This document shows positions 51,567-64,000 of a DNA stretch of 64,000 nucleotides, piece after piece. Both the position numbers and the translations under genes were made by a program. The first letter of the stretch is position 1. Each line of letters starts with the position of its first letter. The notes beneath the pieces were generated by a model. It searched no databases. It saw only the letters and a program-made list of their open reading frames with translations, and was not told the origin of the DNA. This DNA is from an uncultured Bacteroidales bacterium (GTDB taxonomy: Bacteria; Bacteroidota; Bacteroidia; Bacteroidales; FEN-979), in contig CAIKNA010000338.1 of assembly GCA_903828645.1 (NCBI GenBank), positions 1,468 through 65,467 on the forward strand. Reading direction: 5' to 3'.

Positions 51567-53510
51567 ATGAAAAGATCTTTACAATTTAGTTTCGGTATAA
51601 CGCTGTTTTTCATGATGGTAGTTGTCCATCCACTTGCAGCCCAGATACTCATGCTGGACAATTTCGATTATCCGGCAGGTGACTCGTTGACCAAGCACAA
51701 CTGGATCCAGCAGTCGAACACAACGACATTTCCTTTGATGGTGTCGAACGGGGGACTAACCTATTCAGGGTACATCGGGTCAGGCATAGGAAATGCAACA
51801 ACCTTGGGAGTTGAAGGCCAGGACGTTTTCCGTGGTTTTGTAAAGCAGACGCTGCCAGGCACACTTTACCTGACCTGCCTTGCAAAAGTGATCACGGCGA
51901 CAACTGCCGGCGATTTCTTTATCTCATTCAAGGAATCAGCCACCTCCCCGACAAATGTCAACTACCGGGGAAGGGTTTGGGTGAAGGCTGATGCATCAAA
52001 CCATCTTGCATTCGGCGTTACCAAAGGTGCAATGACGTCTCCAATGGTTCCCAATTATACAGGGTTTACCTATAACTTAAATACCACCTATCTTCTGGTT
52101 ATGAAGTTTACCATCGTAGAAGGAACCGTCCCCAACGACAGTGCACAACTGTTTATCGACCCGGTTATCGGAAATCCCGAGCCTGCTGCTTCGGTTATTT
52201 GCCCTGATGTCAACTCTGGGAGCGATTTGGGTCTTGGATCCGTTTTATTAAGACAGGGAACCAACGGGTCATCCCCCAGTGTAATGATAGATGGCATCCG
52301 GGTGTCAAAAAGCTGGCAGTCTGCTATCACGCCAAGCAATGTCTCTACGCTCAGCAATTTGCAGGTCGACGGCACCACGGTAACCGGCTTTCTGCCCAAT
52401 GTGTTTACCTATAATGACACGGTTCCATTCGGTCAGCCTACGGTTGCAGTAACTGGCACCACAACCTGCATCATGGCGAACATGATTGTCAATACGACAA
52501 CGTCAATCCCTGGAATATCGACGGTGGTGGTAACTGCGGAGAATGGAACTTCCACCAGCACCTATACGATCATCCATTCATATTTCTTTTACACGGTCAA
52601 CCTGACAGTAAACCCGGTTGGAACCGGAACGGTGTCGGGGGGCGGGGTGTTGCCATGGGGGATTCCGGCAACGGTTACAGCCACACCAAACACAGGGTAT
52701 GGCTTTATGAACTGGACAGAGTATGGAACAATTGTCAGTACAAACCCAAACTATACTTTTAACCCGGTGAACAATACGGAGTTAGTTGCTAACTTTGGCC
52801 TGCTTTACCAGATAACTGCTACCGCTTCTCCTGCAGCCGGAGGTACCATCACAGGGACCGGTCCGGTGGTTTCGGGCGGAACAGCAACGCTTACCGCAAC
52901 CGCACAAAACGGATATATTTTCGACAACTGGACAGAAAACGGCAGTGTGATCGGTACATCGCCTGCTCTTGTGCTAACGAACGTAACGGCAAACCACGAT
53001 GTAGTGGGACATTTTCTTCAGAGTTCCAACACCTTTACTGTTTCGGCCACGGCGAATCCACCGGCAGCCGGTGTGGTTACCGGATCGGGGAATGTGCCGG
53101 CAGGCGGAAGCATCACGCTCAGTGCTTCCCAGAATTGGGGCTATGTATTCGTGAACTGGACTGAAAACGGCAACGTGCTTGGAACTTCAAATTCGCTGAC
53201 ATTCACCAATGTACAGACAAATCATTCAGTCATTGCCAATTTCCGTCAAGTTGGCGTAGGACTTGAAGATCATTCAATTTCGGGAATCGAGGTATTTCCG
53301 ACCTTTGCAGGGAATGACGTGTATGTAAAAAGCCAAAACCGGATGGATGAGATCCAGGTAATTGACCTCGAAGGCAAACTGGTATGGAAGGAGAGACCCG
53401 GAGGAAACAGCGCCACTATCTCCATCTCGATGTGGAACAGCGGGGTTTACCTGGTGAGGGTCATATCCGGAGACCAGGTGTTTACCAGGAGAATCATCAA
53501 AGGGAAATAG
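51567..53510 (+). CDS. T9SS cargo without recognisable catalytic domain: N-terminal beta-sandwich-like region, cadherin-like module, 3 InlB-B-repeat-like units, type-A CTD
   Basis: 647 aa with a signal peptide. The cadherin-like part reads STLSNLQVDGTTVTGF...VVVTAENGTSTSTYTI. Three roughly 70-aa repeats follow the pattern Y.V...A.P...G.V.G.G......T..A....GY.F.NWTE.G......P...F. The CTD reads IEVFPTFAGNDVYVKS...GVYLVRVISGDQVFTRRIIKGK. Confidence 0.75.
   Translation: MKRSLQFSFGITLFFMMVVVHPLAAQILMLDNFDYPAGDSLTKHNWIQQSNTTTFPLMVSNGGLTYSGYIGSGIGNATTLGVEGQDVFRGFVKQTLPGTLYLTCLAKVITATTAGDFFISFKESATSPTNVNYRGRVWVKADASNHLAFGVTKGAMTSPMVPNYTGFTYNLNTTYLLVMKFTIVEGTVPNDSAQLFIDPVIGNPEPAASVICPDVNSGSDLGLGSVLLRQGTNGSSPSVMIDGIRVSKSWQSAITPSNVSTLSNLQVDGTTVTGFLPNVFTYNDTVPFGQPTVAVTGTTTCIMANMIVNTTTSIPGISTVVVTAENGTSTSTYTIIHSYFFYTVNLTVNPVGTGTVSGGGVLPWGIPATVTATPNTGYGFMNWTEYGTIVSTNPNYTFNPVNNTELVANFGLLYQITATASPAAGGTITGTGPVVSGGTATLTATAQNGYIFDNWTENGSVIGTSPALVLTNVTANHDVVGHFLQSSNTFTVSATANPPAAGVVTGSGNVPAGGSITLSASQNWGYVFVNWTENGNVLGTSNSLTFTNVQTNHSVIANFRQVGVGLEDHSISGIEVFPTFAGNDVYVKSQNRMDEIQVIDLEGKLVWKERPGGNSATISISMWNSGVYLVRVISGDQVFTRRIIKGK
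52590..53243 (+). repeat. Three in-frame tandem InlB-B-repeat-like coding units (~70 aa each)
   Basis: The units are YTVNLTVNPVGTGTVSGGG...NWTEYGTIVSTNPNYTF, YQITATASPAAGGTITGTG...NWTENGSVIGTSPALVL and FTVSATANPPAAGVVTGSG...NWTENGNVLGTSNSLTF. Confidence 0.75.
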
Positions 53511-53533
53511 TAACAACTTAAAAAAAAATTGAT

Positions 53534-55036
53534 ATGAAAAAAAATCTACCAAAAAGTATGTTTATAGTGATCCTGATGATCCTTCTGTCAGGTTCATTAA
53601 GTGCCCAGGTCTATAGTTTCCAGGAAGGTTTTGCAACAAATGCACCTCCTGCCGGCTGGATCACAACCAATGTGGCATGGTCAACCCTGCACAATAACGG
53701 GTTATATACTGGCGCCTATGCAGCCAAACTAAAGCCCAACGAGTCCTTCCTGATATGCAAGGCCGTCAATACCGCCGACATGCTTCAGTATTATTGCCAG
53801 GTGCGGGATACCACGGCAGCAACCAATTTTCACCTGATGATCGAGAAATCGACCGATAAGCTGACGTGGACAGAAATAAGTAAAGATCCGTTCAATAAAG
53901 CAGACACGAACTGGCAGGTGATGAATTTATCTGTAAAGGATAATTCCCCGGTACTTTACATCCGGTTTCATGCAACCGCGCTGGGCGGAACTGCGACTCT
54001 CGGACTCTGTTACATCGACGATGTGAGCATTACCAAACTGGCGGTATCCCCAACAGATGCCACCCTGACCGATTTTACTTACAACAGTACAACCGTGGAT
54101 GGATTTGCCGCGACTACGCTTAACTACGCGGTTGAAGTGCCATACTTTGTTTCACAGGTGGCCATGGGAGGAACACCCAATAATCCGGCGGCCACCATGA
54201 CCATCACTAACCCGACCTACTTACGCGGGACTGAAGCTGAGCGTACCGGCAAAATTGTTGTGCATGCCTCTGATGGGGTGACCACCAAGACCTATTCGAT
54301 CGTATTTACAGTTTCAAAATACATTTACAAGACCGGATTTGTAACGACCGGATCAGCCATTGTCCCATTTGAAGGCTGGACCACCAGTTATACCCTGGTC
54401 TCCACGACCATTCCGATGGGAGATCATGGTACATTTCCAGGAACTGCTGCTTTCAAGTTTATCCGCGGTCAAACCGATAAAGTCGGATACCTTAATACTG
54501 CAAAATATGTAAAATCAGACACGCTTGATTTCTGGCTTGCTGTTGACCAGGGTGACGGCGTGGAGCATATGCTGATCGAAAAACGTGTTCTCGGCGGAAT
54601 AAAGGTGACGGTAGGCAACATCAATGCCACCGATATGGGTCCCGACTGGAAAGAATTCAAATACCCAATCAAGACAGACGACAGCACCGAGATCATCTTC
54701 ACTCCAACCATAACTCCTGAAAGCCTGGTGACCAGGATTTTCATGGATGATCTGAGTCTTACCGGAAAACCGGTTATCGGGGGCATCACAAAAGTTACAG
54801 GAAAGGCAAACATGTCTTTCTACCCGAACCCAGCCACCGATTATATCACGGTGAGCATAAATGATCCTGCTTTCCATTCTGTTGATCTTTATGACATTAC
54901 TGGAAAAAGGGTCTTTTCAGCCGAAGTCAGTGGAGAGGGAATCAACATCGACCTGCGAGTTTACCCGAGGGGGATTTATTTCGTAACCTGCAGGAATAAT
55001 GAATGCGTTACCACAGGGAAATTTATTAAAAATTAA
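53534..55036 (+). CDS. T9SS cargo without recognisable catalytic domain: two MAM/CBM-like beta-sandwich modules flanking a cadherin-like module, type-A CTD
   Basis: 500 aa with a signal peptide. FQEGFATNAPPAGW...LMIEKSTDKLTWTEIS...CYIDDVSIT is homologous to FKEGFVTFPPVNW...LYIEKSTNGGSTWTTLS...FYIDDVSLT in 40781-45589. The cadherin-like part starts TDATLTDFTYNSTTVDGF. The CTD reads MSFYPNPATDYITVSI...GIYFVTCRN. Confidence 0.75.
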   Translation: MKKNLPKSMFIVILMILLSGSLSAQVYSFQEGFATNAPPAGWITTNVAWSTLHNNGLYTGAYAAKLKPNESFLICKAVNTADMLQYYCQVRDTTAATNFHLMIEKSTDKLTWTEISKDPFNKADTNWQVMNLSVKDNSPVLYIRFHATALGGTATLGLCYIDDVSITKLAVSPTDATLTDFTYNSTTVDGFAATTLNYAVEVPYFVSQVAMGGTPNNPAATMTITNPTYLRGTEAERTGKIVVHASDGVTTKTYSIVFTVSKYIYKTGFVTTGSAIVPFEGWTTSYTLVSTTIPMGDHGTFPGTAAFKFIRGQTDKVGYLNTAKYVKSDTLDFWLAVDQGDGVEHMLIEKRVLGGIKVTVGNINATDMGPDWKEFKYPIKTDDSTEIIFTPTITPESLVTRIFMDDLSLTGKPVIGGITKVTGKANMSFYPNPATDYITVSINDPAFHSVDLYDITGKRVFSAEVSGEGINIDLRVYPRGIYFVTCRNNECVTTGKFIKN

Positions 55037-55159: not shown

Positions 55160-57022
55160 ATGAATAAATGTATAACAACCAGGCTCTGCGGATTCATTAT
55201 AATCCTCTCAGTTTTTCTGTGCTATCCCGTAATCAGAAGTCAGGGGCAGACCCCCTTGATACAGAATATCAATAACCGGGCGGTTCTCTCCCTCAACGGA
55301 AAATGGAACTACATCATTGATCCCTATGAAATGGGTTACTATGACTATCGTGCCATACCTTTTGATGAGAATCCCAAACCTCAGGACAGGGCTTTTTATA
55401 CCAATGCAAAACCGAAGGATAAATCTGAGCGGATCGAATACGATTTTGACAAATCACCCACTCTTTTGGTTCCCAGGGACTGGAATTCACAGGATGAGAA
55501 ACTGTTGTATTATGAAGGGACCATCTGGTATAAAAAATCATTCAATTATCATAAAGACGCGGCAGGAAACAGGGTTTTTCTCCATTTTGGCGCCGTGAAC
55601 TACCGTGCCGATGTTTATCTGAATGGGAAAAAACTCGGCTACCACAAAGGCGGGTTCACTCCCTTTAATTTCGAGATCACCGACCTGGTTGCAGAGAAAG
55701 ATAATTTCGTCATTTTAAGGGTCTGTAACACCCGGAAAGCCGAGGAGGTTCCCACACTCAATACCGACTGGTGGAATTATGGTGGAATTACCCGGGATGT
55801 CAACGTTGCAGAGACCCCTGCTGTATTTATCTGCGACTATTTTCTGCAATTGAAAAAAGGTTCGGGAGATGTACTTAAAGGGTACGTGAAGCTTAACGGA
55901 CAAGGCATTTCAGGAAAAGAGGTCAGGTTGACCATCCCGGAGATGAAGTTTGAAAAAACCGTCATAACCGACGATGCAGGATTTGCGGCCATTGAAGTCG
56001 CCGTCCCGGGGTTACACCGCTGGTCGCCTGAGGATCCTTACCTTTATGATGTGAAGATCAGCACATCGATGGATGCAGTTACCGACAGGATCGGTTTCAG
56101 GATGGTCGAAACAAGCGGGATGGATATCCTGCTTAACGGTAAACCTGTTTTTCTCCGGGGGATCAGCATTCATGAAGAAAACGCCATCCGGGGAGGAAGG
56201 GCATATTCCAGGGAGGATGCCATTATGCTGCTTACCTGGGCAAGGGAACTGGGGTGTAATTTTGTGCGGCTTGCACACTATCCCCATAATGAAAACCTGG
56301 CAAGGGTTGCCGATGAGATGGGAATCATGGTTTGGGAGGAAAACCCCGTTTACTGGACCATCCAGTGGACAAACCAGGAGACCTTCAATACTGCGGCAAC
56401 TCAGTTGAAAGAGATGATTTCCAGGGACAAAAACCGGGCTTCGGTCATCGTATGGTCGATGGCCAACGAGACCCCGGTCACACCTGAGAGACTGACATTT
56501 CTGAAAAATCTCGCCGATACGGCCAGGAGCATCGACAACGTTCGCCTTATCAGTGCCGCATTGGAACAACATGGTACGCCCGGGAATGAACTGGTCAGGA
56601 CCATTGAGGACCCTTTCGCTCAGTATGTCGACCTCGTGAGTTTTAACGAATACATCGGATGGTACGACGGACTGCCTGACAAGTGCAGGAAAATAGAATG
56701 GAATATCCTTTTTAAAAAACCGGTGTTTATTTCCGAATTCGGTGCGGATGCGCTTGGTGGGATGCACGGCGACAGCCTGACCCGATGGTCGGAGGAGTAC
56801 CAGCAATATATGTACAGGGAGACACTGGGGATGATTGGAAAAATTCCGCAGTTGCGTGGATGTTCTCCATGGATTCTGGTGGACTTCAGGTCGCCGAGGA
56901 GGGTTTTACCCGGGATCCAGGATGGCTGGAACCGCAAGGGACTCATCTCGGAAACGGGAAACAAGAAAAAAGCATTTTACACGTTGAAAGAATTTTACGA
57001 AACAATCAGCAAAAAGTACTGA
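55160..57022 (+). CDS. GH2-family glycosidase, probably beta-glucuronidase
   Basis: 620 aa with a signal peptide. Motifs are VYLNGKKLGYHKGGFTPFNFEITD, WSMANE (acid/base Glu) and FISEFGADA (nucleophile Glu). The C-terminal GWNRKGL carries the N-x-K motif that contacts the glucuronate carboxylate in GUS enzymes (E. coli GGNKKGI). Confidence 0.8.
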   Translation: MNKCITTRLCGFIIILSVFLCYPVIRSQGQTPLIQNINNRAVLSLNGKWNYIIDPYEMGYYDYRAIPFDENPKPQDRAFYTNAKPKDKSERIEYDFDKSPTLLVPRDWNSQDEKLLYYEGTIWYKKSFNYHKDAAGNRVFLHFGAVNYRADVYLNGKKLGYHKGGFTPFNFEITDLVAEKDNFVILRVCNTRKAEEVPTLNTDWWNYGGITRDVNVAETPAVFICDYFLQLKKGSGDVLKGYVKLNGQGISGKEVRLTIPEMKFEKTVITDDAGFAAIEVAVPGLHRWSPEDPYLYDVKISTSMDAVTDRIGFRMVETSGMDILLNGKPVFLRGISIHEENAIRGGRAYSREDAIMLLTWARELGCNFVRLAHYPHNENLARVADEMGIMVWEENPVYWTIQWTNQETFNTAATQLKEMISRDKNRASVIVWSMANETPVTPERLTFLKNLADTARSIDNVRLISAALEQHGTPGNELVRTIEDPFAQYVDLVSFNEYIGWYDGLPDKCRKIEWNILFKKPVFISEFGADALGGMHGDSLTRWSEEYQQYMYRETLGMIGKIPQLRGCSPWILVDFRSPRRVLPGIQDGWNRKGLISETGNKKKAFYTLKEFYETISKKY

Positions 57023-57873
57023 TGGGACTGTTTAATGCATCATGGGGCAAAGTATTGTCCATTTGCACGCTCCTGACGGCCATTACCGGGTGTGTCTCCA
57101 TGCATGACCAACCTGTCAGGAACATGAGCGGCACTTCAACGTATTCAGTTTCAGGACTGGATATCTACCTGCTGATTGGCCAGTCAAACATGGCCGGGCG
57201 CGCACAGATCCTCGTTCCCGATTTCGATACCCTCTTTGGAACTTTTCTTTTTACCGGCGATAGTGTTCACCCCTGGGAACCGGCTGTGAATCCGCTCAAT
57301 AAATATTCAACGATCAGAAGAGAACTCTCTGTTCAGCAGTTGAGCCCGGGTTATTATTTTGCCAAAACGATGATGGCAAAGGAACCCGCAAAACGTTTAG
57401 GGTTGGTGGTCAACGCACGCGGCGGAACCTCCATCGACCTGTGGGCGCCAGGCACCACATATTTCAAGGATGCTGTCAGTCGCACAAGGCAGGCTTTGCA
57501 CAGCGGGCACCTCAGAGCCATTCTTTGGCACCAGGGTGAATCGGATGTGAAAAAATACCGGGAATACCCTGATAAGATTGTTACCCTGATTGGAGCCCTT
57601 CGCAAAGAGCTGAACAGCCCTGGTCTGCCTTTTATTGCAGGAGAAGTAGCCGAAGAAAAACCGAACCGGGCCGGGTTCAACGTGATGCTGAAAGAAACCT
57701 TGTCGAAGATACCATATACTTCCGTGGTTAGTGTGACCGGATTGACCACATACGATTCCACCCACTTTGACACACGGTCAATGAGGATTCTCGGGGAACG
57801 ATATGCCCTTGAGACAAAGAAAGTACTGGACGGTCAGAAAATGAAAGTAAAACCTACAAAAAAATCAAAATAA
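57022..57873 (+). CDS. SASA-type (sialate O-acetylesterase-like / DUF303, SGNH-like) carbohydrate esterase lipoprotein
   Basis: I use the ATG at 57022 (MGLFNASWGKVLSICTLLTAITGCVS, lipobox), which overlaps the GH2 stop as TGATG. Motifs are LLIGQSNMAGRA and ILWHQGESD. Confidence 0.75.
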   Translation: MGLFNASWGKVLSICTLLTAITGCVSMHDQPVRNMSGTSTYSVSGLDIYLLIGQSNMAGRAQILVPDFDTLFGTFLFTGDSVHPWEPAVNPLNKYSTIRRELSVQQLSPGYYFAKTMMAKEPAKRLGLVVNARGGTSIDLWAPGTTYFKDAVSRTRQALHSGHLRAILWHQGESDVKKYREYPDKIVTLIGALRKELNSPGLPFIAGEVAEEKPNRAGFNVMLKETLSKIPYTSVVSVTGLTTYDSTHFDTRSMRILGERYALETKKVLDGQKMKVKPTKKSK

Positions 57874-57882
57874 CTTTGAAAA

Positions 57883-58734
57883 ATGGATGAAATAACCTTC
57901 AAAGATTTAAACAATACCCTCACGGTGATTACCGGAGGCGCCGGGGTGATCGGAAAAGCGATCGCGCTGGGACTGGCCTCAATCGGGGGCAGGACGGTAA
58001 TACTCGATATTGATCTGGACGCTGCACAGTTCGTTGCAGCCGAAATCACGGAACGTACCGGGAGTTTTTGCATGGGAGTAAAGGCTGATGTGCTGAACAA
58101 ACAGTCATTGCTTGCCGCCAGGGAGACCATACACCGGGAGGCCGGGAAGATTAGCTTCCTGATCAATGGGGCAGGAGGGAACGCGCCGAAGGGAACCACC
58201 CGGCTGGAAGAGATAGTACCTGAGCAGATCCATGACCTGGCAGGAACTTTTTTCGGACTGGAGGTGGAGGGAATGGAGCGCATTTTTGACTTGAATTATT
58301 TCGGAACCATTCTGCCAACGATGGTCTTTGCTGCCGATATGATCGAGGCAGGCAAAGGGGCAATTCTGAATATTTCTTCCCTGAGCGCCTTTCACCCCCT
58401 GACGAAAATACCGGTTTATTCTTCAGCCAAGGCAGCCATTAATAATTTCACGGAATGGCTGGCAGTTCATATGGCTAAAACGGGTGTGCGCGTCAATGCC
58501 ATCGCACCGGGATTCTTCCTGACAAAACAGAACAGGTTCCTCCTGATAGATGAACAATCCGGCAACCTTTTACCCCGTGGCCAGAAAATCATGACCGGTA
58601 CGCCGATGGGACGGTTTGGAACACCCGAGGAACTTGCAGGCCCGGTTGCCTTTCTTCTTTCCGACATGGCGCGCTACATTACCGGCACGGTTATGCTGAT
58701 CGATGGTGGATATAATGCATACAGCGGAGTATGA
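57883..58734 (+). CDS. uxuB: SDR-family D-mannonate oxidoreductase (fructuronate reductase, Bacteroides UxuB type)
   Basis: TGGAGVIGKA; NGAGGNAPKGTT...FFGLEVEGMERIFDLNYFGTILPT; ILNISSLSAF.PLTKIPVYSSAKAAINNFTEWLAVHMA; RVNAIAPGFFLTKQNRFLL; TPMGRFGTPEEL; IDGGYNAYSGV. This is the characteristic pattern of the SDR-type UxuB of Bacteroidota. Confidence 0.7.
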   Translation: MDEITFKDLNNTLTVITGGAGVIGKAIALGLASIGGRTVILDIDLDAAQFVAAEITERTGSFCMGVKADVLNKQSLLAARETIHREAGKISFLINGAGGNAPKGTTRLEEIVPEQIHDLAGTFFGLEVEGMERIFDLNYFGTILPTMVFAADMIEAGKGAILNISSLSAFHPLTKIPVYSSAKAAINNFTEWLAVHMAKTGVRVNAIAPGFFLTKQNRFLLIDEQSGNLLPRGQKIMTGTPMGRFGTPEELAGPVAFLLSDMARYITGTVMLIDGGYNAYSGV

Positions 58735-58753
58735 TCGTGGAAATAATAACAAA

Positions 58754-59833
58754 ATGAGTATGCAACTGAAGAGACAATTTTCCTGGTCATTGCTGGTTCC
58801 AACCAGCATGGGGGTGAGGCTAACCCCGAAAAATGGTCAGCCGGTTCATAGCAGTGATACATTTAAAATGCAGGCAACGAGCGCTGAAACCAATGTTGCC
58901 AGCATCCCTGCATCCTTAGGGCTTCCTGTAAAGGTACTCACCACCTTTGTAAAAGGGAGTCCGGTTGCCCGGTTTATAAAAAACAGCCTGGCAAGCCGGC
59001 ACATGGTTTATGAAGGAAGGGAAGTGGAACAGGGTGGTCCATGGGGATACCGCCACCAGTTCAACATCGCCGACAGCGGTTTTGGCACCCGGGGTCCGCG
59101 CGTGCTCAACGACCGCGCAGGCGAAGTGGGCCGAATCCTGCGTATGAACGATTTTGACCTGGTCCGGATCTTTGAAAAAGAGGGTGTTCAGATCGTGCAC
59201 CTGTCGGGCCTGATCGCTGCCTTATCCCCGGAAACAGGACAATTTTGCCTTGAACTGGCCCGGGCAGCAAAGCGAACCGGATCCCTGATTTCGTTTGACC
59301 TGAATTACCGGGCCTCATTCTGGAAGGACCGTGAAAAAGAGTTGCATGATATCTTCATCGAGATCACTTCAATCTCCAATATCCTTGTTGGGAATGAAGA
59401 GGATTTTCAGCTTTGCCTGGGAATTGAAGGCCCTGAGGCAGGCGGAAAAAGCATCGACGCAGAACTGGAAAGTTTTAAGAAAATGATTATCCGCGCCAGG
59501 CAGGCTTTCCCCGGCGTTTCGGTATTTGCTACCACACTTCGTCAGGTGGTCAGCGCTAACCAGCATTTATGGGGTGCAATCATGCTTGAAGGCGACATCT
59601 GGCATATTGTTGAGCCTCGTGAAATTGCTATCCTTGATCGCATCGGCGGGGGTGATGGATTTGTCGGCGGATTGCTTTACGGGATATTGAAGGAGTGGGA
59701 ACCTGAAAAATGGATACGGTTTGGCTGGGCCAGCGGTGCCCTGGCCACTACATTTTTAACCGACTATGCCCAGCCCGCAGATGAGGAGATGATCTGGAGT
59801 ATCTGGAAAGGGAATGCGAGGGTCAGTCGATAA
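58754..59833 (+). CDS. kdgK: PfkB-family sugar kinase, likely 2-dehydro-3-deoxygluconokinase
   Basis: I use the ATG at 58754, which lies after the uxuB stop. The start reads LLVPTSMGVRLTP. Other features are HLSGLIAALSPETGQFCLELARAAK, FDLNYRASFW and the C-terminal anion-hole motif DRIGGGDGFVGGLLYG. Context is next to uxuB. Confidence 0.7.
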   Translation: MSMQLKRQFSWSLLVPTSMGVRLTPKNGQPVHSSDTFKMQATSAETNVASIPASLGLPVKVLTTFVKGSPVARFIKNSLASRHMVYEGREVEQGGPWGYRHQFNIADSGFGTRGPRVLNDRAGEVGRILRMNDFDLVRIFEKEGVQIVHLSGLIAALSPETGQFCLELARAAKRTGSLISFDLNYRASFWKDREKELHDIFIEITSISNILVGNEEDFQLCLGIEGPEAGGKSIDAELESFKKMIIRARQAFPGVSVFATTLRQVVSANQHLWGAIMLEGDIWHIVEPREIAILDRIGGGDGFVGGLLYGILKEWEPEKWIRFGWASGALATTFLTDYAQPADEEMIWSIWKGNARVSR

Positions 59834-59854: not shown

Positions 59855-61123
59855 ATGATATACTACCAGGGTGGTTCAGCCGGTACAGAGTTTACGCGCG
59901 ACATGCTTTGCAGGGCGCTTTTTGAAGCGCTCGGCAAACTTGGCCCACGGCGTAAAATATTGGTGATCCCGCCCGATTTTACCAGGTTTCATTCACATGC
60001 AGGGATTCTTACCGAAATGATCTGGGAATACTATGTTGATGCGGTGTCCGACATCCTCCCGGCTCTTGGAACCCATGTGGCCATGGCGGAAAGTGAACTT
60101 GATACGATGTTCGGGAAGGTACCCCATTCGCTTTTCCGGGTACACGACTGGAGGAATGATACGGTGACACTGGGAGAGGTGCCGGCTGAGTTTGTGAACA
60201 GGGTTTCTGAAGGAAAGGTTAGTTTTGCCTGGCCGGCGCAGGTCAACAAACTTTTAACCGGAGGCGGATTCGACCTCATTCTTTCTATTGGGCAGGTTGT
60301 ACCCCACGAGGTGATCGGGATGGCCAATTACAACAAGAACATTTTTGTCGGTACCGGCGGACGCGAAGGGATCAATAAAAGCCATTTCCTGGGAGCTGCC
60401 TATGGAATGGAACGAATCATGGGCAAAGCGGACAATCCGGTGCGGCAGGTGCTTAACTATGCCGCAGAACATTTCACAGTTGATTTGCCAATCGTATATG
60501 TCCATACGGTCGTATCAAAATCATCAGGAGGAATCCCGGGCGTGAACGGATTGTTTATCGGGAATGATCATGAATGCTTTACAAATGCCGCTGCGCTTTC
60601 GCTGGAGGTCAATTTTGAAAGGGTGAGCGAACCCCTGGAAAAGGTGGTCGTTTATCTTGATCCGGAAGAGTTTAAAAGTACCTGGCTTGGCAACAAAAGC
60701 ATATACCGGACAAGGATGGCCATTGCCAACGGCGGCGAACTCATCGTTCTTGGCCCGGGGATCCGTACCTTTGGAGAGGACAAGGAGATCGACCGCCTGA
60801 TCCGGAAATATGGATACAAAACCACACCTGAGATTCTTGAGTTTGTCAGGCAAAATGATGACCTGGCTCGGAACCTGAGTGCTGCCGCACATCTGATCCA
60901 TGGATCATCGGAAAATCGTTTTACTATCACGTATTGTCCCGGACATATGTCACAGGAAGAGATTAATGGAGTGAATTTTGAATACGCTGATCTCCACATG
61001 ATGATGCAAAGATACAATCCGGCCATGCTTCACGATGGGTACAACCAGGTTGGAAATGAACGGATATTCTATATTTCCAATCCGGCCCTTGGTTTGTGGG
61101 CCCATTCGAGCAGACTGACATAA
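59855..61123 (+). CDS. LarA-like (lactate racemase N-terminal domain / DUF2088 superfamily) protein, putative sugar-acid epimerase
   Basis: 422 aa. ILVIPPDFTRFHS resembles the LarA ..D.TRP.. strand. GQVVPHEVIGMANYNKNIFVGTGGREGINKSH lines up by eye with the LarA segment carrying catalytic His, cofactor-tethering Lys and Ni-ligand His. The assignment is by pattern only. Confidence 0.45.
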   Translation: MIYYQGGSAGTEFTRDMLCRALFEALGKLGPRRKILVIPPDFTRFHSHAGILTEMIWEYYVDAVSDILPALGTHVAMAESELDTMFGKVPHSLFRVHDWRNDTVTLGEVPAEFVNRVSEGKVSFAWPAQVNKLLTGGGFDLILSIGQVVPHEVIGMANYNKNIFVGTGGREGINKSHFLGAAYGMERIMGKADNPVRQVLNYAAEHFTVDLPIVYVHTVVSKSSGGIPGVNGLFIGNDHECFTNAAALSLEVNFERVSEPLEKVVVYLDPEEFKSTWLGNKSIYRTRMAIANGGELIVLGPGIRTFGEDKEIDRLIRKYGYKTTPEILEFVRQNDDLARNLSAAAHLIHGSSENRFTITYCPGHMSQEEINGVNFEYADLHMMMQRYNPAMLHDGYNQVGNERIFYISNPALGLWAHSSRLT

Positions 61124-61138
61124 TAAAATTCCAGGGAA

Positions 61139-62266
61139 ATGATAAAAATTGTTGCTGACAATAAAATTCCGTTTCTGAAAGGTGTCCTGGAACCCTATGC
61201 TTCTGTCAACTACCTGGATGGAAGGCAAATAGACCGCTTGGCAGTTGAAAATTGCGATGCCCTTCTGATCAGGACCCGTACAATTTGCAATTCATCCCTG
61301 CTTCGGGATTCAGCGGTCAAGTTTATTGCAACAGCAACCATAGGTTTCGACCACATCGATACAGGATATTGCTATTCCCGTTCAATCCGCTGGGTCAATG
61401 CCCCGGGATGCAATGCCGGTTCGGTGCAGCAGTATATCGCTTCAGTACTGGCCAACCTGGTTTTAAAACATCACTACTCCCTGGCAGGTAAAACACTTGG
61501 TATCATAGGAGTAGGACATGTTGGAAAGAAAGTCGAGGCGTTGGCCCGCCTCCTCGGTATGAAGGTCCTGTTGAACGACCCGCCACGGGCAAGAAAGGAA
61601 GGGAGGGCTGGATTTGTTCCGATTCACAGGCTATTAGTGGAGTCGGATATTGTAACGCTGCATGTTCCATTGAACAGGTCGGGGGAGGATATGACCTTGC
61701 ACCTGATCAACCAGGCCACACTCGGGCTCATGAAACCCGGTTCATGGCTTATCAACACATCACGCGGAGAAGTAGCCGATGGTGATTCACTTAATTCAGC
61801 ACTTACTGCCGGTCGCCTTGAAGGCACCGTACTTGATGTCTGGGAAAATGAACCTTCAATTGACCTGAAACTTTTAGAACAGGTTACCCTTGCAACTCCG
61901 CATATTGCCGGTTATTCAACCGATGGTAAATTAAACGGCACCGTTCAGGTGGTCAGAAAACTCGGAAATCATTTTAATCTTCCGATTGCTTCCTGGGAAC
62001 CTCCCGGGATCGCGGAACCATCGGATTCAATCATCACCTTCGACTGCCGGGATCATACATTGGAAAAAATAGCCTGCATGGCAATGCTTCACACCTATGA
62101 TGTGAATGATGATGATTTAAGGTTTCGTTCTAACCCGGGTGAATTCGAAAAACAAAGAGGCGATTATCCTGTCAGGAGAGAGTTCCCAGCTTATAAAATC
62201 AAGTTGTTAAATTGTCCCGACGCGGCAAGGGAGATATTTGAGACATTGGGGTTTTCGGGTGGTTGA
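61139..62266 (+). CDS. pdxB: 4-phosphoerythronate dehydrogenase
   Basis: It aligns by eye along its whole length with E. coli PdxB. Matching segments are KIVADNKIPF, DALLIRTRT, KFIATATIGFDHID, NAPGCNAGSVQQYI and GIIGVGHVGKK. Further matches are LNDPPRA, LHVPL, LINTSRGEV, LDVWENEP and TPHIAGYS. The C-terminal dimerisation-domain motif PGEFEKQRGDYPVRREF is also present. Confidence 0.88.
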   Translation: MIKIVADNKIPFLKGVLEPYASVNYLDGRQIDRLAVENCDALLIRTRTICNSSLLRDSAVKFIATATIGFDHIDTGYCYSRSIRWVNAPGCNAGSVQQYIASVLANLVLKHHYSLAGKTLGIIGVGHVGKKVEALARLLGMKVLLNDPPRARKEGRAGFVPIHRLLVESDIVTLHVPLNRSGEDMTLHLINQATLGLMKPGSWLINTSRGEVADGDSLNSALTAGRLEGTVLDVWENEPSIDLKLLEQVTLATPHIAGYSTDGKLNGTVQVVRKLGNHFNLPIASWEPPGIAEPSDSIITFDCRDHTLEKIACMAMLHTYDVNDDDLRFRSNPGEFEKQRGDYPVRREFPAYKIKLLNCPDAAREIFETLGFSGG

Positions 62267-62350
62267 AAACAAGTACAAAAGGGGCAAATCGGACTGAATC
62301 TTTTTTGGTCTTAAGGTGACTAAATTTTGAATTTTAAAATAAAATTAAGA

Positions 62351-63805
62351 ATGAAAAAATTTGCAGATATTGGTTTAATAGGACTGGCGGTGATGGGCGA
62401 GAATCTCGTCCTGAATATGGAAAGCAAAGGCTTTACGGTAGCGGTCTTTAACAGGTCGCTTGAAAAGATCGATCAGTTCATGAAAGATCGGGGAAACAAC
62501 AAGAACATCATCGGGACACATTCCCTGGAGGAATTTGTCAGAACCCTAGAACGACCCCGCAAAGTGATGCTGATGGTGAAGGCCGGAAAACCGGTGGATG
62601 AATTTATCGAACTTTTAATTCCTTACCTGGAACATGGGGATATCATCATTGACGGCGGAAATTCGCATTTCCCCGATTCAAACCGCCGGACGGCATACCT
62701 GGAAAGCAAGGGCTTGTTGTTTATCGGAACAGGGGTCTCCGGTGGCGAAGAGGGTGCCCTGCGCGGACCCTCCATCATGCCCGGAGGTTCTCCGGCAGCA
62801 TGGCTGCTTGTAAAACCCATTTTCCAGGCCATCGCTGCCAAAGTAAGTGATGGAACTCCCTGTTGTGACTGGGTGGGCGAAAACGGGGCGGGTCACTTTG
62901 TCAAAATGGTGCATAACGGGATCGAATATGGCGACATGCAGATCATCTGCGAAGCCTACCAGGTTATGAGAGATATGCTTGGCATGAAGGCGGAAGAGAT
63001 ACACCTGGTTTTCAAAGAATGGAATGAAGGCGACCTGGGAAGCTACCTGATCGAAATCACAAGCGATATTTTTGCCTTCCGTGATGCTGATGGAACGGCA
63101 CTGGTCGACAACATCCTGGATGCTGCGGGACAGAAAGGAACCGGGAAATGGACCGGGGTTGCTGCGCTCGATCTTGGAGTACCGCTGACACTGATCGGTG
63201 AAGCGGTTTTTGCCCGTTGCCTCTCCTCTCAAAAGGAGGAGCGCGTGGAAGCCTCAAAGCTCCTGGCAACTCCTTCCCATGCTTTCAAGGGTGAACGGGA
63301 ACTTTTTCTCCGCCATTTAAAAGATGCCCTGTATGGGTCGAAGATCGTTTCGTATGCGCAGGGATACCTGCTGATGCGGGCCGCAGCAAAAGAATACGGA
63401 TGGAACCTGAACTATGGAGGTATTGCCATGATGTGGCGGGGCGGATGTATCATCCGTTCCAATTTCCTGGACAAGATCCGGGATGCCTATATGTTAAACA
63501 ACCAACTGACCAACCTTTTACTTGACCCGTTTTTCAGCAACACCATCATGGATGCACAGCCTGGCTGGCGGAATGTAATATCCGAAGCTGCTTTGAATGG
63601 GATCCCGGTCCCGGCCATGTCGTCGGCTCTTGCTTATTTTGACGGGTTCAGGACTGCAAACCTACCGGCAAATCTGCTTCAGGCCCAGCGCGACTATTTC
63701 GGAGCTCATACGTACGAGCGGACCGACCGGCCACGCGGTGAATTCTTTCATACGAACTGGACCGGAAGGGGAGGAGAAACATCCTCGTCAACCTATAATG
63801 TGTGA
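62351..63805 (+). CDS. gnd: NADP-dependent 6-phosphogluconate dehydrogenase (decarboxylating)
   Basis: I use the ATG at 62351 (MKKFADIGLIGLAVMGENLVLNM); the track start at 62327 is a TTG. Motifs are GTGVSGGEEGA..GPS.MPGG, HFVKMVHNGIEYGDMQ, GQKGTGKW and RDYFGAHTYER. Confidence 0.93.
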   Translation: MKKFADIGLIGLAVMGENLVLNMESKGFTVAVFNRSLEKIDQFMKDRGNNKNIIGTHSLEEFVRTLERPRKVMLMVKAGKPVDEFIELLIPYLEHGDIIIDGGNSHFPDSNRRTAYLESKGLLFIGTGVSGGEEGALRGPSIMPGGSPAAWLLVKPIFQAIAAKVSDGTPCCDWVGENGAGHFVKMVHNGIEYGDMQIICEAYQVMRDMLGMKAEEIHLVFKEWNEGDLGSYLIEITSDIFAFRDADGTALVDNILDAAGQKGTGKWTGVAALDLGVPLTLIGEAVFARCLSSQKEERVEASKLLATPSHAFKGERELFLRHLKDALYGSKIVSYAQGYLLMRAAAKEYGWNLNYGGIAMMWRGGCIIRSNFLDKIRDAYMLNNQLTNLLLDPFFSNTIMDAQPGWRNVISEAALNGIPVPAMSSALAYFDGFRTANLPANLLQAQRDYFGAHTYERTDRPRGEFFHTNWTGRGGETSSSTYNV

Positions 63806-63857: not shown

Positions 63858-64000
63858 ATGAAAAAGATATTCCTGGTAAGTCTTATTGTAACTGTGGCAG
63901 TCATCCAGACTTTTGCACAAATAAAAGCCGACAAAAGACCCTTCACCGATTATTTTAATACCGACAGTTGCACCTTTCTGACTTCCGGGCGAAATACCTA
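63858..64000 (+). CDS. Start of a secreted hypothetical protein, cut by the right window edge (absent from ORF track)
   Basis: The ATG at 63858 gives MKKIFLVSLIVTVAVIQTFAQIKADKRPFTDYFNTDSCTFLTSGRNT..., a classic signal peptide. The frame is open to the end of the window. Confidence 0.55.
   Translation, partial: MKKIFLVSLIVTVAVIQTFAQIKADKRPFTDYFNTDSCTFLTSGRNT

What the first reader, a model, noticed from the sequence alone, without database searches (positions are those of the whole stretch)
59855..61123. LarA-like protein in a hexuronate-catabolism operon: possible nickel-pincer-dependent sugar-acid epimerase without cofactor genes nearby
The 422-aa ORF follows uxuB and kdgK by 21 nt and precedes pdxB. 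Its ..VIPPDFTRFHS.. and ..VVPHEVIGMANYNKNIFVGTGG...INKSH.. segments resemble the LarA core. In lactate racemase that core supplies a catalytic His, the Lys that tethers the nickel-pincer nucleotide (NPN) and a Ni-binding His.

LarA-superfamily members are known to racemise or epimerise other 2-hydroxyacids, sugar acids among them. In this context a mannonate/gluconate or altronate-type C2 epimerase would be logical. It could also compensate for the absence of uxaC and uxuA in this window. No larB/larC/larE-like genes are visible here.
Basis: inference. Interest (0 to 1): 0.6.

Follow-up and report, generated by a model that had tools for sequence, protein, structure and literature searches.

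The report
Nickel-cofactor sugar-acid epimerase lacking cofactor genes
The gene encodes an intact member of a catalogued but never assayed branch of the nickel-pincer lactate-racemase family. It is needed to send glucuronate into the pentose-phosphate pathway, yet this genome and about two thirds of sampled Bacteroidota carriers lack all three known cofactor-synthesis genes.

Summary
ORF 59855-61123 (+, 422 aa) is a LarA homologue. It scores 646 bits against NCBIfam NF052594 (cut-off 500), "nickel-dependent putative hexonate epimerase", which is group 18 of Desguin 2020. All seven catalytic and cofactor-binding residues are present, and the model has the LarA fold.

It sits in an 11-gene glucuronide operon: GH2, esterase, UxuB, PfkB kinase, LarAH18, PdxB, Gnd, then UxaC and an MFS transporter just past the window. 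The genome has no UxuA, Eda or Zwf and only this one Gnd. A C2 epimerisation of mannonate or 6-phosphomannonate is therefore the only visible link between UxuB and Gnd.

The gene's identity and role are already published and curated, and earlier agents of this scan filed the same family as ordinary on other genomes.

What I add is that LarB, LarC and LarE are absent from this 100%-complete genome. They are also absent from 16 of 25 other sampled Bacteroidota carriers, three of them single-contig genomes, and from the closest complete chromosome. In these lineages the gene stays under strong purifying selection (dN/dS 0.02-0.09), and no alignment column separates them from LarBCE-positive carriers.

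Where the cofactor comes from is unexplained. I found no paper describing this.

The parts
55160..57022 (+). GH2 glycoside hydrolase, beta-glucuronidase-like. First gene of the array; releases glucuronate.
   Evidence: Pfam Glyco_hydro_2_C/N. NCBIfam beta-glucuronidase NF007538 at 270 bits, below its cut-off.
56785..57873 (+). SASA-family carbohydrate esterase. The listed start overlaps the GH2 gene, so the true start is probably further downstream.
   Evidence: Pfam SASA 174 bits.
57883..58734 (+). UxuB-type short-chain dehydrogenase (fructuronate to D-mannonate).
   Evidence: NCBIfam NF006132 D-mannonate oxidoreductase, 347 bits against cut-off 281. An orthologue lies upstream of LarAH18 in 21 of 24 other loci.
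58703..59833 (+). PfkB-family sugar-acid kinase. It looks like KdgK but is most likely a gluconate or mannonate 6-kinase here.
   Evidence: Pfam PfkB and KDG-kinase-like NCBIfam hits, all below cut-off. The genome has no Eda, PF01081. A PfkB kinase is present in 17 of 24 loci.
59855..61123 (+). LarAH group-18 protein, the putative hexonate or 6-phosphohexonate 2-epimerase. This is the finding.
   Evidence: NF052594 at 646.5 bits. 4NAR/GntE2 at E 5.5e-32. AlphaFold2 pLDDT 89.9 with the LarA fold, TM 0.77 to 4NAR and 0.71 to 5HUQ. Key residues are invariant in 25 orthologues.
61139..62266 (+). PdxB-type 4-phosphoerythronate dehydrogenase. Probably not part of the pathway.
   Evidence: NF001309 at 416 bits, just under its cut-off of 434. 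It is next to LarAH18 or Gnd in 8 of 24 loci. Each of 25 other carriers has exactly one PdxB, including those where it is operon-linked. The own genome has a second copy on C201.
62327..63805 (+). Gnd, decarboxylating 6-phosphogluconate dehydrogenase. It is the exit of the pathway and the only copy in the genome.
   Evidence: TIGR00873 at 765 bits. Single PF00393 hit in the genome. No Zwf in the genome. It lies directly downstream of LarAH18, or after PdxB, in 23 of 24 other loci.
63858..64000 (+). Start of the operon's continuation beyond the window. On contig C338 the order is a 232-aa secreted hypothetical, a GDSL/LamG esterase, UxaC (window-equivalent 65947-67347) and an ExuT-like MFS transporter (67363-68715).
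   Evidence: ORFs on the contig. Pfam and NCBIfam on locus L054: UxaC 690 bits, MFS D-galactonate-transporter subfamily.

Best explanation
The gene encodes a LarA-fold C2 epimerase. It converts the D-mannonate made by UxaC and UxuB from glucuronate into D-gluconate. Alternatively it acts after the kinase and converts 6-phosphomannonate into 6-phosphogluconate. Either way the PfkB kinase and Gnd can then pass the carbon to ribulose 5-phosphate.

The inferred chemistry is that of lactate racemase. A hydride moves from C2 of the 2-hydroxyacid to a pyridinium-type cofactor held by K161 and H177, and returns to the opposite face. H74 and H151 act as the two acid/base residues.

Shown here: family membership, the fold, conservation of the residues, the operon, the missing alternative routes, and purifying selection.

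Inferred: the substrate, the order of kinase and epimerase, and the mechanism.

Unresolved: the cofactor's origin, because this organism has none of the known synthesis genes LarB, LarC and LarE. The options are import of the cofactor or a precursor, an unrecognised biosynthetic route, or a different cofactor in the same pocket.
For: Family: NF052594 at 646.5 bits against cut-off 500; Lar_N. The closest solved protein is 4NAR, which is GntE2, a proven D-gluconate 2-epimerase (PMC7583248).

Fold: the top 14 Foldseek PDB hits are all LarA-family structures.

Residues: D41, R44, H74, H151, K161, H177 and K281 are invariant in 25 orthologues and carry the exact LarA spacings. The H-E-V loop and W277 are the published group 18-20 signature.

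Synteny: Gnd is adjacent in 23 of 24 loci, UxuB in 21 of 24 and a PfkB kinase in 17 of 24. UxaC and an MFS transporter are often nearby.

Necessity: the own genome lacks UxuA, Eda and Zwf and has a single Gnd. The same triple state, with no LarBCE, no UxuA and no Zwf, occurs in G401, G101, G337 and G233.

Selection: dN/dS is 0.02-0.09 in LarBCE-less genus pairs, the same range as in LarBCE-positive pairs.
Against: No group-18 protein has ever been assayed (PMC7583248).

LarB, LarC and LarE are absent genome-wide, so the only cofactor known for this family has no known source here. No CbiM/NikM-type or NiCoT nickel importer was found.

Group 18 differs from GntE2 at three substrate-lining positions: V153 for S156, N280 for G286 and H349 for N348. 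It also has NYN instead of SGG just before the cofactor lysine, so the substrate or cofactor fit may differ.

The kinase is 75% identical to kinases that sit beside Eda and KduI in other genomes, so its specificity is uncertain.
Confidence: 0.7

Rival explanations
1. Same reaction and same cofactor, but the cell does not make the nickel-pincer nucleotide. It takes up NPN or a late precursor made by neighbouring microbes, or it makes NPN with enzymes unrelated to LarB/C/E.
For: All NPN-binding residues are invariant, and no alignment column separates LarBCE-less from LarBCE-positive carriers. In 7 of the 9 LarBCE-positive carriers LarAH18 is the only LarA homologue, so LarBCE plausibly serves it there. 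LarBCE status needs at least 3 changes on the LarAH18 tree, which fits repeated loss. Four Phycisphaerae carriers have LarB and LarE but no LarC, which shows that parts of the pathway can be replaced or dispensed with. Rhodothermaceae carry canonical LarA without LarBCE.
Against: I found no NPN transporter or salvage route described in the papers searched. The mBio 2024 paper calls the cofactor-containing LarA homologues labile. Carriers include a cultured isolate (Melioribacter sp. Ez-97), which presumably grows in pure culture. No candidate biosynthesis gene appears in the 25 neighbourhoods. No known nickel importer of the two families tested is present.
Confidence: 0.4
2. Same reaction but independent of NPN. 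Group-18 proteins use the LarA pocket with another hydride acceptor, for example a nickel-free nicotinic or nicotinamide mononucleotide. LarBCE, where present, would then serve other enzymes.
For: 17 of 26 sampled Bacteroidota carriers lack LarBCE. LarC presence follows host family rather than LarAH18: f28 17/17 and f26 8/8 with or without the gene, and almost none in the Melioribacteraceae-type family that carries it most often. The published context table shows no LarB/C/E next to group 18, unlike groups 1, 3, 4, 19 and 22. All 25 group-18 sequences aligned here have NYN where LarA and GntE2 have SGG, just before the lysine. Group 18 has never been assayed with NPN.
Against: The nickel-ligand His (H177) and the tether Lys (K161) are invariant, which is hard to explain without the pincer complex. 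The two nearest groups (19 and 20) need NPN in vitro. No NPN-independent LarA homologue with these residues is known. In docking, NAD(P)+ does not fit LarA (PMC13524815).
Confidence: 0.2
3. Order variant. The PfkB kinase is a mannonate kinase and LarAH18 is the 6-phosphomannonate 2-epimerase. Both activities were shown in Lactobacillus suebicus extracts, and their genes were never identified.
For: [quoted passage not shown] Group 18 differs from the free-acid epimerase GntE2 at pocket positions and has extra invariant basic residues (R285, R287, K318, R355). The kinase is PfkB-type here, whereas Thermotoga uses the FGGY gluconokinase.
Against: There is no direct evidence. Groups 19 and 20 act on unphosphorylated mannonate. 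I did not test whether L. suebicus has a group-18 gene.
Confidence: 0.3
4. LarB, LarC and LarE are really present but were missed, because of assembly gaps in this 409-contig MAG or extreme divergence.
For: The genome is a fragmented MAG with 4.57% contamination. Marker-gene completeness does not guarantee every gene.
Against: All three are also missing in the single-contig genomes G097, G213 and G337 and in the complete chromosome of the closest relative, OY782677. Scores are bimodal: 225-514 bits when a gene is present, and under 56 bits or no hit otherwise. The three genes co-occur perfectly in 41 genomes. tblastn with Bacteroidota LarB/C/E proteins finds only weak pieces of the purE, nadE and guaA loci; the best HMM hits are PurE, NadE, GuaA and TilS.
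Confidence: 0.05
5. The gene is a decaying relic, or has a non-catalytic role, in lineages without the cofactor pathway.
For: Only the absence of LarBCE.
Against: dN/dS is 0.02-0.09 with synonymous sites near saturation. 127 of 422 columns are invariant, including all active-site residues. Operon position is conserved. No other route links mannonate to Gnd in this genome.
Confidence: 0.03

Closest known systems
LarA-homologue group 18 ('putative hexonate epimerase') of Desguin et al. 2020 (PMC7583248), which is NCBIfam NF052594 NPN_18_hexonate
   Same: Full-length HMM match above the equivalog cut-off. It has the H-E-V loop and the W in helix alpha-11. The published context of SDR, 6-phosphogluconate dehydrogenase, ribokinase-family kinase, MFS transporter and glucuronate isomerase is the window's context.
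   Different: Nothing in the protein differs. The family has never been assayed. I found no paper stating that many carriers, this one included, lack LarB/C/E.
GntE2 / LarAH20 of Thermotoga maritima (PDB 4NAR), an NPN-dependent D-gluconate 2-epimerase
   Same: Closest solved structure (TM 0.77, E 5.5e-32). All catalytic and NPN residues align. The pathway logic is the same: UxuB-type reductase, then epimerase, kinase and Gnd.
   Different: Only about 23% identity. Pocket positions differ: V153 for S156, N280 for G286, H349 for N348, and NYN for SGG before the lysine. The partner kinase is PfkB-type rather than FGGY. T. maritima has LarB, LarC and LarE; this genome has none.
LarA lactate racemase of Lactiplantibacillus plantarum (PDB 5HUQ) with its LarB/LarC/LarE maturation system
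   Same: Same two-domain fold (TM 0.71) and the same seven functional residues with identical spacings (H to K is 10 residues, K to H is 16).
   Different: About 15% identity. The substrate pocket is polar instead of bulky and hydrophobic. No lar maturation genes occur anywhere in the genome.
Mannonate kinase plus 6-phosphomannonate 2-epimerase route of Lactobacillus suebicus (PMC6978723)
   Same: Same overall conversion, from mannonate to 6-phosphogluconate and then Gnd, bypassing UxuA, KdgK and Eda.
   Different: It is known only as activities in cell extracts, with the genes unidentified. Whether a LarA homologue is responsible there is unknown.

Membership tests
LarA superfamily (DUF2088 / Lar_N, NPN-dependent 2-hydroxyacid racemases and epimerases) | Lar_N domain and the two-domain LarA fold | tested here: met
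   PF09861 at 38.2 bits against cut-off 23.3. AlphaFold2 model pLDDT 89.9. The top 14 Foldseek PDB hits are all LarA-family structures: 4NAR, 2YJG, 5HUQ, 6C1W, 6D6Z, 9EID and 9Q3K.
LarA superfamily | Catalytic residues equivalent to D72, H108, H174 and K298 of L. plantarum LarA | tested here: met
   D41, H74, H151 and K281 were aligned through 4NAR and by profile-profile comparison to canonical LarA. They are invariant in 25 orthologues. Residue roles come from PMC7583248.
LarA superfamily | NPN-binding residues equivalent to R75, K184 (tether) and H200 (nickel ligand) | tested here: met
   R44, K161 and H177. The spacings H151-K161 (10) and K161-H177 (16) equal those of LarA. All are invariant.
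LarA superfamily | Cofactor supply: LarB, LarC and LarE encoded in the same genome | tested here: not met
   LarC has no hit with TIGR00299 or PF01969. The best LarB hit is 52 bits (cut-off 175) and is PurE. The best LarE hits are at most 37 bits (cut-off 150) and are NadE, GuaA and TilS. The genome is 100% complete by marker genes.
LarA superfamily | Protein actually carries NPN and nickel | not testable with these tools
   This needs protein mass spectrometry and metal analysis.
LarAH group 18 / NCBIfam NF052594 | Full-length score above the curated equivalog cut-off | tested here: met
   646.5 bits against 500, covering positions 4-410 of 411.
LarAH group 18 / NCBIfam NF052594 | Published signature: E-V/S after the second catalytic His, and W in helix alpha-11 | tested here: met
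   H151-E152-V153 and W277 are invariant. The signature is described in PMC7583248.
LarAH group 18 / NCBIfam NF052594 | Genomic context of SDR, 6-phosphogluconate dehydrogenase and a ribokinase-family kinase | tested here: met
   All are present in the window. Across 24 other loci, Gnd is present in 23, UxuB in 21 and a PfkB kinase in 17.
LarAH group 18 / NCBIfam NF052594 | Hexonate 2-epimerase activity | not testable with these tools
   The activity has never been measured for any member.

The most novel reading that the evidence does not exclude
A large, strongly conserved branch of the LarA family works in bacteria that have none of the known nickel-pincer cofactor genes. These include Bacteroidales, Ignavibacteria/Melioribacteraceae, Lentimicrobiaceae and Roseivirgaceae, and canonical LarA shows the same state in Rhodothermaceae. 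This would mean one of three things: an undiscovered way to obtain the cofactor (uptake or salvage), a non-homologous biosynthetic route, or LarA-type hydride-shuttle catalysis with a different cofactor. The LarC-less but LarB/LarE-positive Phycisphaerae carriers point the same way for the nickel-insertion step.
Probability: 0.6. Interest if true: 0.75.

Novelty: new variant of a known kind. Interest (0 to 1): 0.55.

Why it matters
The gene itself is a routine member of a catalogued family, and its predicted role explains how many polysaccharide degraders lacking UxuA, KdgK and Eda burn glucuronate through Gnd. That role is mannonate, or its 6-phosphate, to gluconate, or its 6-phosphate.

The new point concerns the cofactor. 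The field's working rule is that LarA homologues need NPN made by LarB, LarE and LarC. The papers I could search discuss only the opposite mismatch, LarBCE without LarA. Here the enzyme is indispensable to its operon and under strong selection in complete genomes that lack all three genes.

Resolving this would reveal either cofactor sharing in microbial communities, a second biosynthetic route to a nickel-carbon cofactor, or a nickel-free version of the chemistry. At least one cultured carrier exists (Melioribacter sp. Ez-97), so the question can be tested directly.

Tried and rejected
1. PdxB as part of an NPN-free oxidise-and-reduce epimerisation. Rejected because each of 25 other carriers has exactly one PdxB, including those where it is operon-linked, so it is the housekeeping gene. 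Only this genome has a second copy.

2. A substitute cofactor gene in the neighbourhood. I clustered all ORFs within 8 kb on each side in 25 loci. This gave only KduI, Eda, an AKR, transketolase, UxaC, an MFS transporter and one conserved but unannotated ~517-aa family found in 14 of 25 loci, in LarBCE-positive and LarBCE-less genomes alike, which I did not follow up. The 232-aa hypothetical after gnd is not conserved elsewhere.

3. Residues distinguishing LarBCE-less from LarBCE-positive proteins. None were found.

4. Sequence-profile search of the PDB to reach L. plantarum LarA directly. Only 4NAR was hit. The mapping was therefore done by profile-profile alignment to canonical Bacteroidota LarA (probability only 51% because the profiles are shallow, but the aligned motifs and spacings agree).

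5. Expression evidence. No RNA holder is listed for the window; only lake-water DNA runs hold it.

6. Literature searches for LarA without LarBCE, for Bacteroidota or Flavobacteria LarA, and for Melioribacter uronate metabolism returned nothing relevant. The 2014 Nature Communications paper on lar gene distribution is not held, so I cannot exclude that it mentions larA-only genomes.

7. Nickel importers. Only the CbiM and NiCoT families were searched and neither was found. NikABCDE-type and TonB-dependent uptake were not tested.

Full report
**Observation**

The ORF at 59855-61123 (+) is open and 422 aa long. It lies 21 nt after a PfkB-kinase ORF and 15 nt before a PdxB-type ORF, and it contains the two quoted motifs. 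It matches Pfam Lar_N at 38 bits (cut-off 23.3). It also matches the NCBIfam equivalog NF052594, "nickel-dependent putative hexonate epimerase", over its full length at 646.5 bits (cut-off 500). That model is group 18 of the LarA-homologue tree of Desguin et al. 2020. There the group is called a putative hexonate epimerase because of its sequence signature and gene context, but no member was assayed (PMC7583248).

**Residues and fold**

The closest solved protein is 4NAR (E 5.5e-32). This is T. maritima GntE2, a proven NPN-dependent D-gluconate 2-epimerase. Its alignment, plus a profile-profile alignment of 25 orthologues against canonical Bacteroidota LarA, gives this mapping:

| This protein | L. 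plantarum LarA |
|---|---|
| D41 | D72 |
| R44 | R75 |
| H74 | H108 |
| H151 | H174 |
| K161 | K184 |
| H177 | H200 |
| K281 | K298 |

- The His-to-Lys spacing (10) and the Lys-to-His spacing (16) are identical to LarA.
- All seven residues are invariant in the 25 sequences, as are the group 18-20 signature H-E-V loop and W277.
- The paper assigns D72, H108, H174 and K298 to catalysis, and R75, K184 and H200 to NPN binding.
- An AlphaFold2 model (pLDDT 89.9) hits only LarA-family structures at the top of a Foldseek PDB search: 4NAR at TM 0.77 and 5HUQ at TM 0.71.
- Differences from GntE2 at pocket positions are V153 for S156, N280 for G286 and H349 for N348. The motif before the cofactor lysine reads NYN, where LarA and GntE2 have SGG.

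**Operon and pathway**

All the genes are on the + strand with gaps of at most 60 nt. In order they are:

1. GH2 beta-glucuronidase-like hydrolase
2. SASA esterase
3. UxuB-type D-mannonate oxidoreductase (NF006132, above cut-off)
4. PfkB kinase
5. LarAH18
6. PdxB
7. Gnd
8. Beyond the window end on the same contig: a secreted hypothetical, a GDSL/LamG esterase, UxaC and an ExuT-like MFS transporter

- The genome is 100% complete by marker genes and has 409 contigs.
- It has no UxuA, no Eda-type aldolase and no Zwf. Its only Gnd is the one in this operon.
- Mannonate therefore has no dehydratase route, and Gnd has no other source of 6-phosphogluconate.
- The only genes left to join them are the kinase and LarAH18, which together must supply a C6 phosphorylation and a C2 epimerisation.
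- The order of those two steps is open. Thermotoga epimerises first (PMC7583248). Lactobacillus suebicus extracts phosphorylate first (PMC6978723).

Across 24 other carriers, Gnd is adjacent in 23, UxuB in 21 and a PfkB kinase in 17. UxaC and an MFS transporter are frequent neighbours.

PdxB is next to the gene in 8 of 24 loci. Every other carrier has exactly one PdxB, so it is the housekeeping gene. The own genome has a second copy on contig C201.

**The cofactor problem**

That absence is what I find.

- LarC gives no hit with either model.
- The best LarB-like hit is PurE. The best LarE-like hits are NadE, GuaA and TilS.
- tblastn with Bacteroidota LarB, LarC and LarE proteins finds nothing more.

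This is not an assembly artefact. In an even sample of 401 genomes of the phylum, 26 carry the family (this counts the own genome and one gene split across contig ends).

- LarB, LarC and LarE co-occur perfectly across the 41 sampled genomes that hold a related LarA homologue.
- They are present in 9 carriers and absent in 17.
- The 17 include the single-contig genomes G097, G213 and G337.

Among 30 named carriers from other searches, six lack all three genes. These are the closest relative (complete Bacteroidales chromosome OY782677, 74% identity), a Roseivirgaceae, a Lentimicrobiaceae and three Ignavibacteriales. Four Phycisphaerae have LarB and LarE but no LarC (same calls).

LarC follows host family more than it follows the gene. 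Two families are 17/17 and 8/8 positive whether or not they carry LarAH18. The Melioribacteraceae-type family that carries LarAH18 most often is almost always negative.

**Is the gene still working without LarBCE?**

Yes, by every sequence test available.

- No alignment column separates the 16 LarBCE-less from the 9 LarBCE-positive proteins, and 127 of 422 columns are invariant.
- Within LarBCE-less genera, synonymous sites are near saturation while dN stays at 0.07-0.21. Where it can be computed, dN/dS is 0.02-0.09, against 0.04-0.09 in LarBCE-positive pairs.
- On the protein tree, LarBCE-less rows form multi-genus clades, and the state needs at least three changes.
- Five genomes combine no LarBCE, no UxuA and no Zwf with an adjacent Gnd: G000, G401, G101, G337 and G233. 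In these the epimerase step cannot be bypassed.
- In 7 of the 9 LarBCE-positive carriers LarAH18 is the only LarA homologue. This suggests the cofactor system does serve it there.

**Reading**

I commit to the published function: C2 epimerase of mannonate or 6-phosphomannonate feeding Gnd, by LarA-type hydride shuttling (confidence 0.7). I treat the cofactor's origin as a real, unexplained anomaly.

- Salvage or a non-homologous synthesis of NPN fits the invariant Lys and His best.
- An NPN-independent cofactor fits the weak link between LarAH18 and LarBCE distributions and the altered NYN motif.
- Missed genes or a decaying relic are poorly supported.

No candidate replacement gene emerged from 25 neighbourhoods. 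One conserved but unannotated ~517-aa family, present in 14 of those 25 loci in both LarBCE states, was not followed up. No CbiM-type or NiCoT nickel importer was found.

The papers I could search discuss LarBCE without LarA, but not the reverse. The 2014 distribution paper is not held.

**Relation to earlier work in this scan**

Several agents met the same family on other genomes and filed it as a known, ordinary group-18 epimerase. I agree on identity and role. None of the summaries shown mentions a genome-wide check for LarBCE, which is the part added here.

**Verdict**

The gene's identity and function are a confirmed member of a known kind. The organism-level context, an indispensable and selected NPN-type enzyme with no known NPN pathway, recurs across several FCB-group lineages. 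That makes it a variant worth an experiment. Cultured carriers and a working heterologous NPN-loading system exist to run it.

Noticed in passing
Genomes G406 (Anaerohalosphaeraceae chromosome OY775912), G407, G408 and G425, reached through loci L072, L078, L079 and L108: Four Phycisphaerae carriers of LarAH18 have clear LarB (about 295 bits) and LarE (about 310 bits) but no LarC (PF01969). This suggests a LarC-independent nickel-insertion step in that class.
   Followed up: partly
G284, G300, G324 and G328 (Rhodothermaceae); loci L059:1354-2634 and L060: These genomes, three of them single-contig, carry a canonical 'nickel-dependent lactate racemase' (Lar_N about 197 bits, all key residues kept) plus a second LarA homologue. 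They have no LarB, LarC or LarE.
   Followed up: partly
Own genome, contig C201:1680-2795 (outside the window): A second PdxB-type gene (425 bits) exists besides the operon copy at window 61139-62266 (415 bits). All 25 other carriers checked have a single PdxB. This could be a recent duplication or MAG contamination (4.57%).
   Followed up: partly
G413 (Marinilabiliaceae MAG, via L100) and G421 (Carboxylicivirga, via L133): The only LarC-like hits are short 281-284-aa ORFs covering just the first ~230 positions of the Ni_insertion model (82-86 bits). This may be a truncated or split LarC.
   Followed up: no
window 51567-55036, and contig C338 beyond the window (window-equivalent 68870-73477, minus strand): The uronate operon is flanked on both sides by large secreted proteins with type-IX secretion C-terminal sorting domains (InlB B-repeat, cadherin-like and Big_5 domains).
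   Followed up: no
window 58703-59833, compared with loci L029-L052: The PfkB kinase next to LarAH18 comes in two forms, about 75% or about 32-36% identical to the window's. The 75% form sits beside Eda and KduI in at least one other genome (G097, locus L043), although this genome has no Eda, so one kinase may serve both KDG and hexonate.
   Followed up: partly
window 56785-57022: The listed start of the SASA esterase ORF overlaps the end of the GH2 gene by 238 nt. Likewise the kinase ORF start overlaps uxuB by 32 nt. The true starts are probably further downstream.
   Followed up: no
loci L061-L140: The family is unusually conserved across phyla, at 61-74% identity between Bacteroidales, Ignavibacteria, Phycisphaerae, Acidobacteriaceae, Verrucomicrobiota and Spirochaetota. 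At least 588 species genomes match two 8-9-residue motifs.
   Followed up: no
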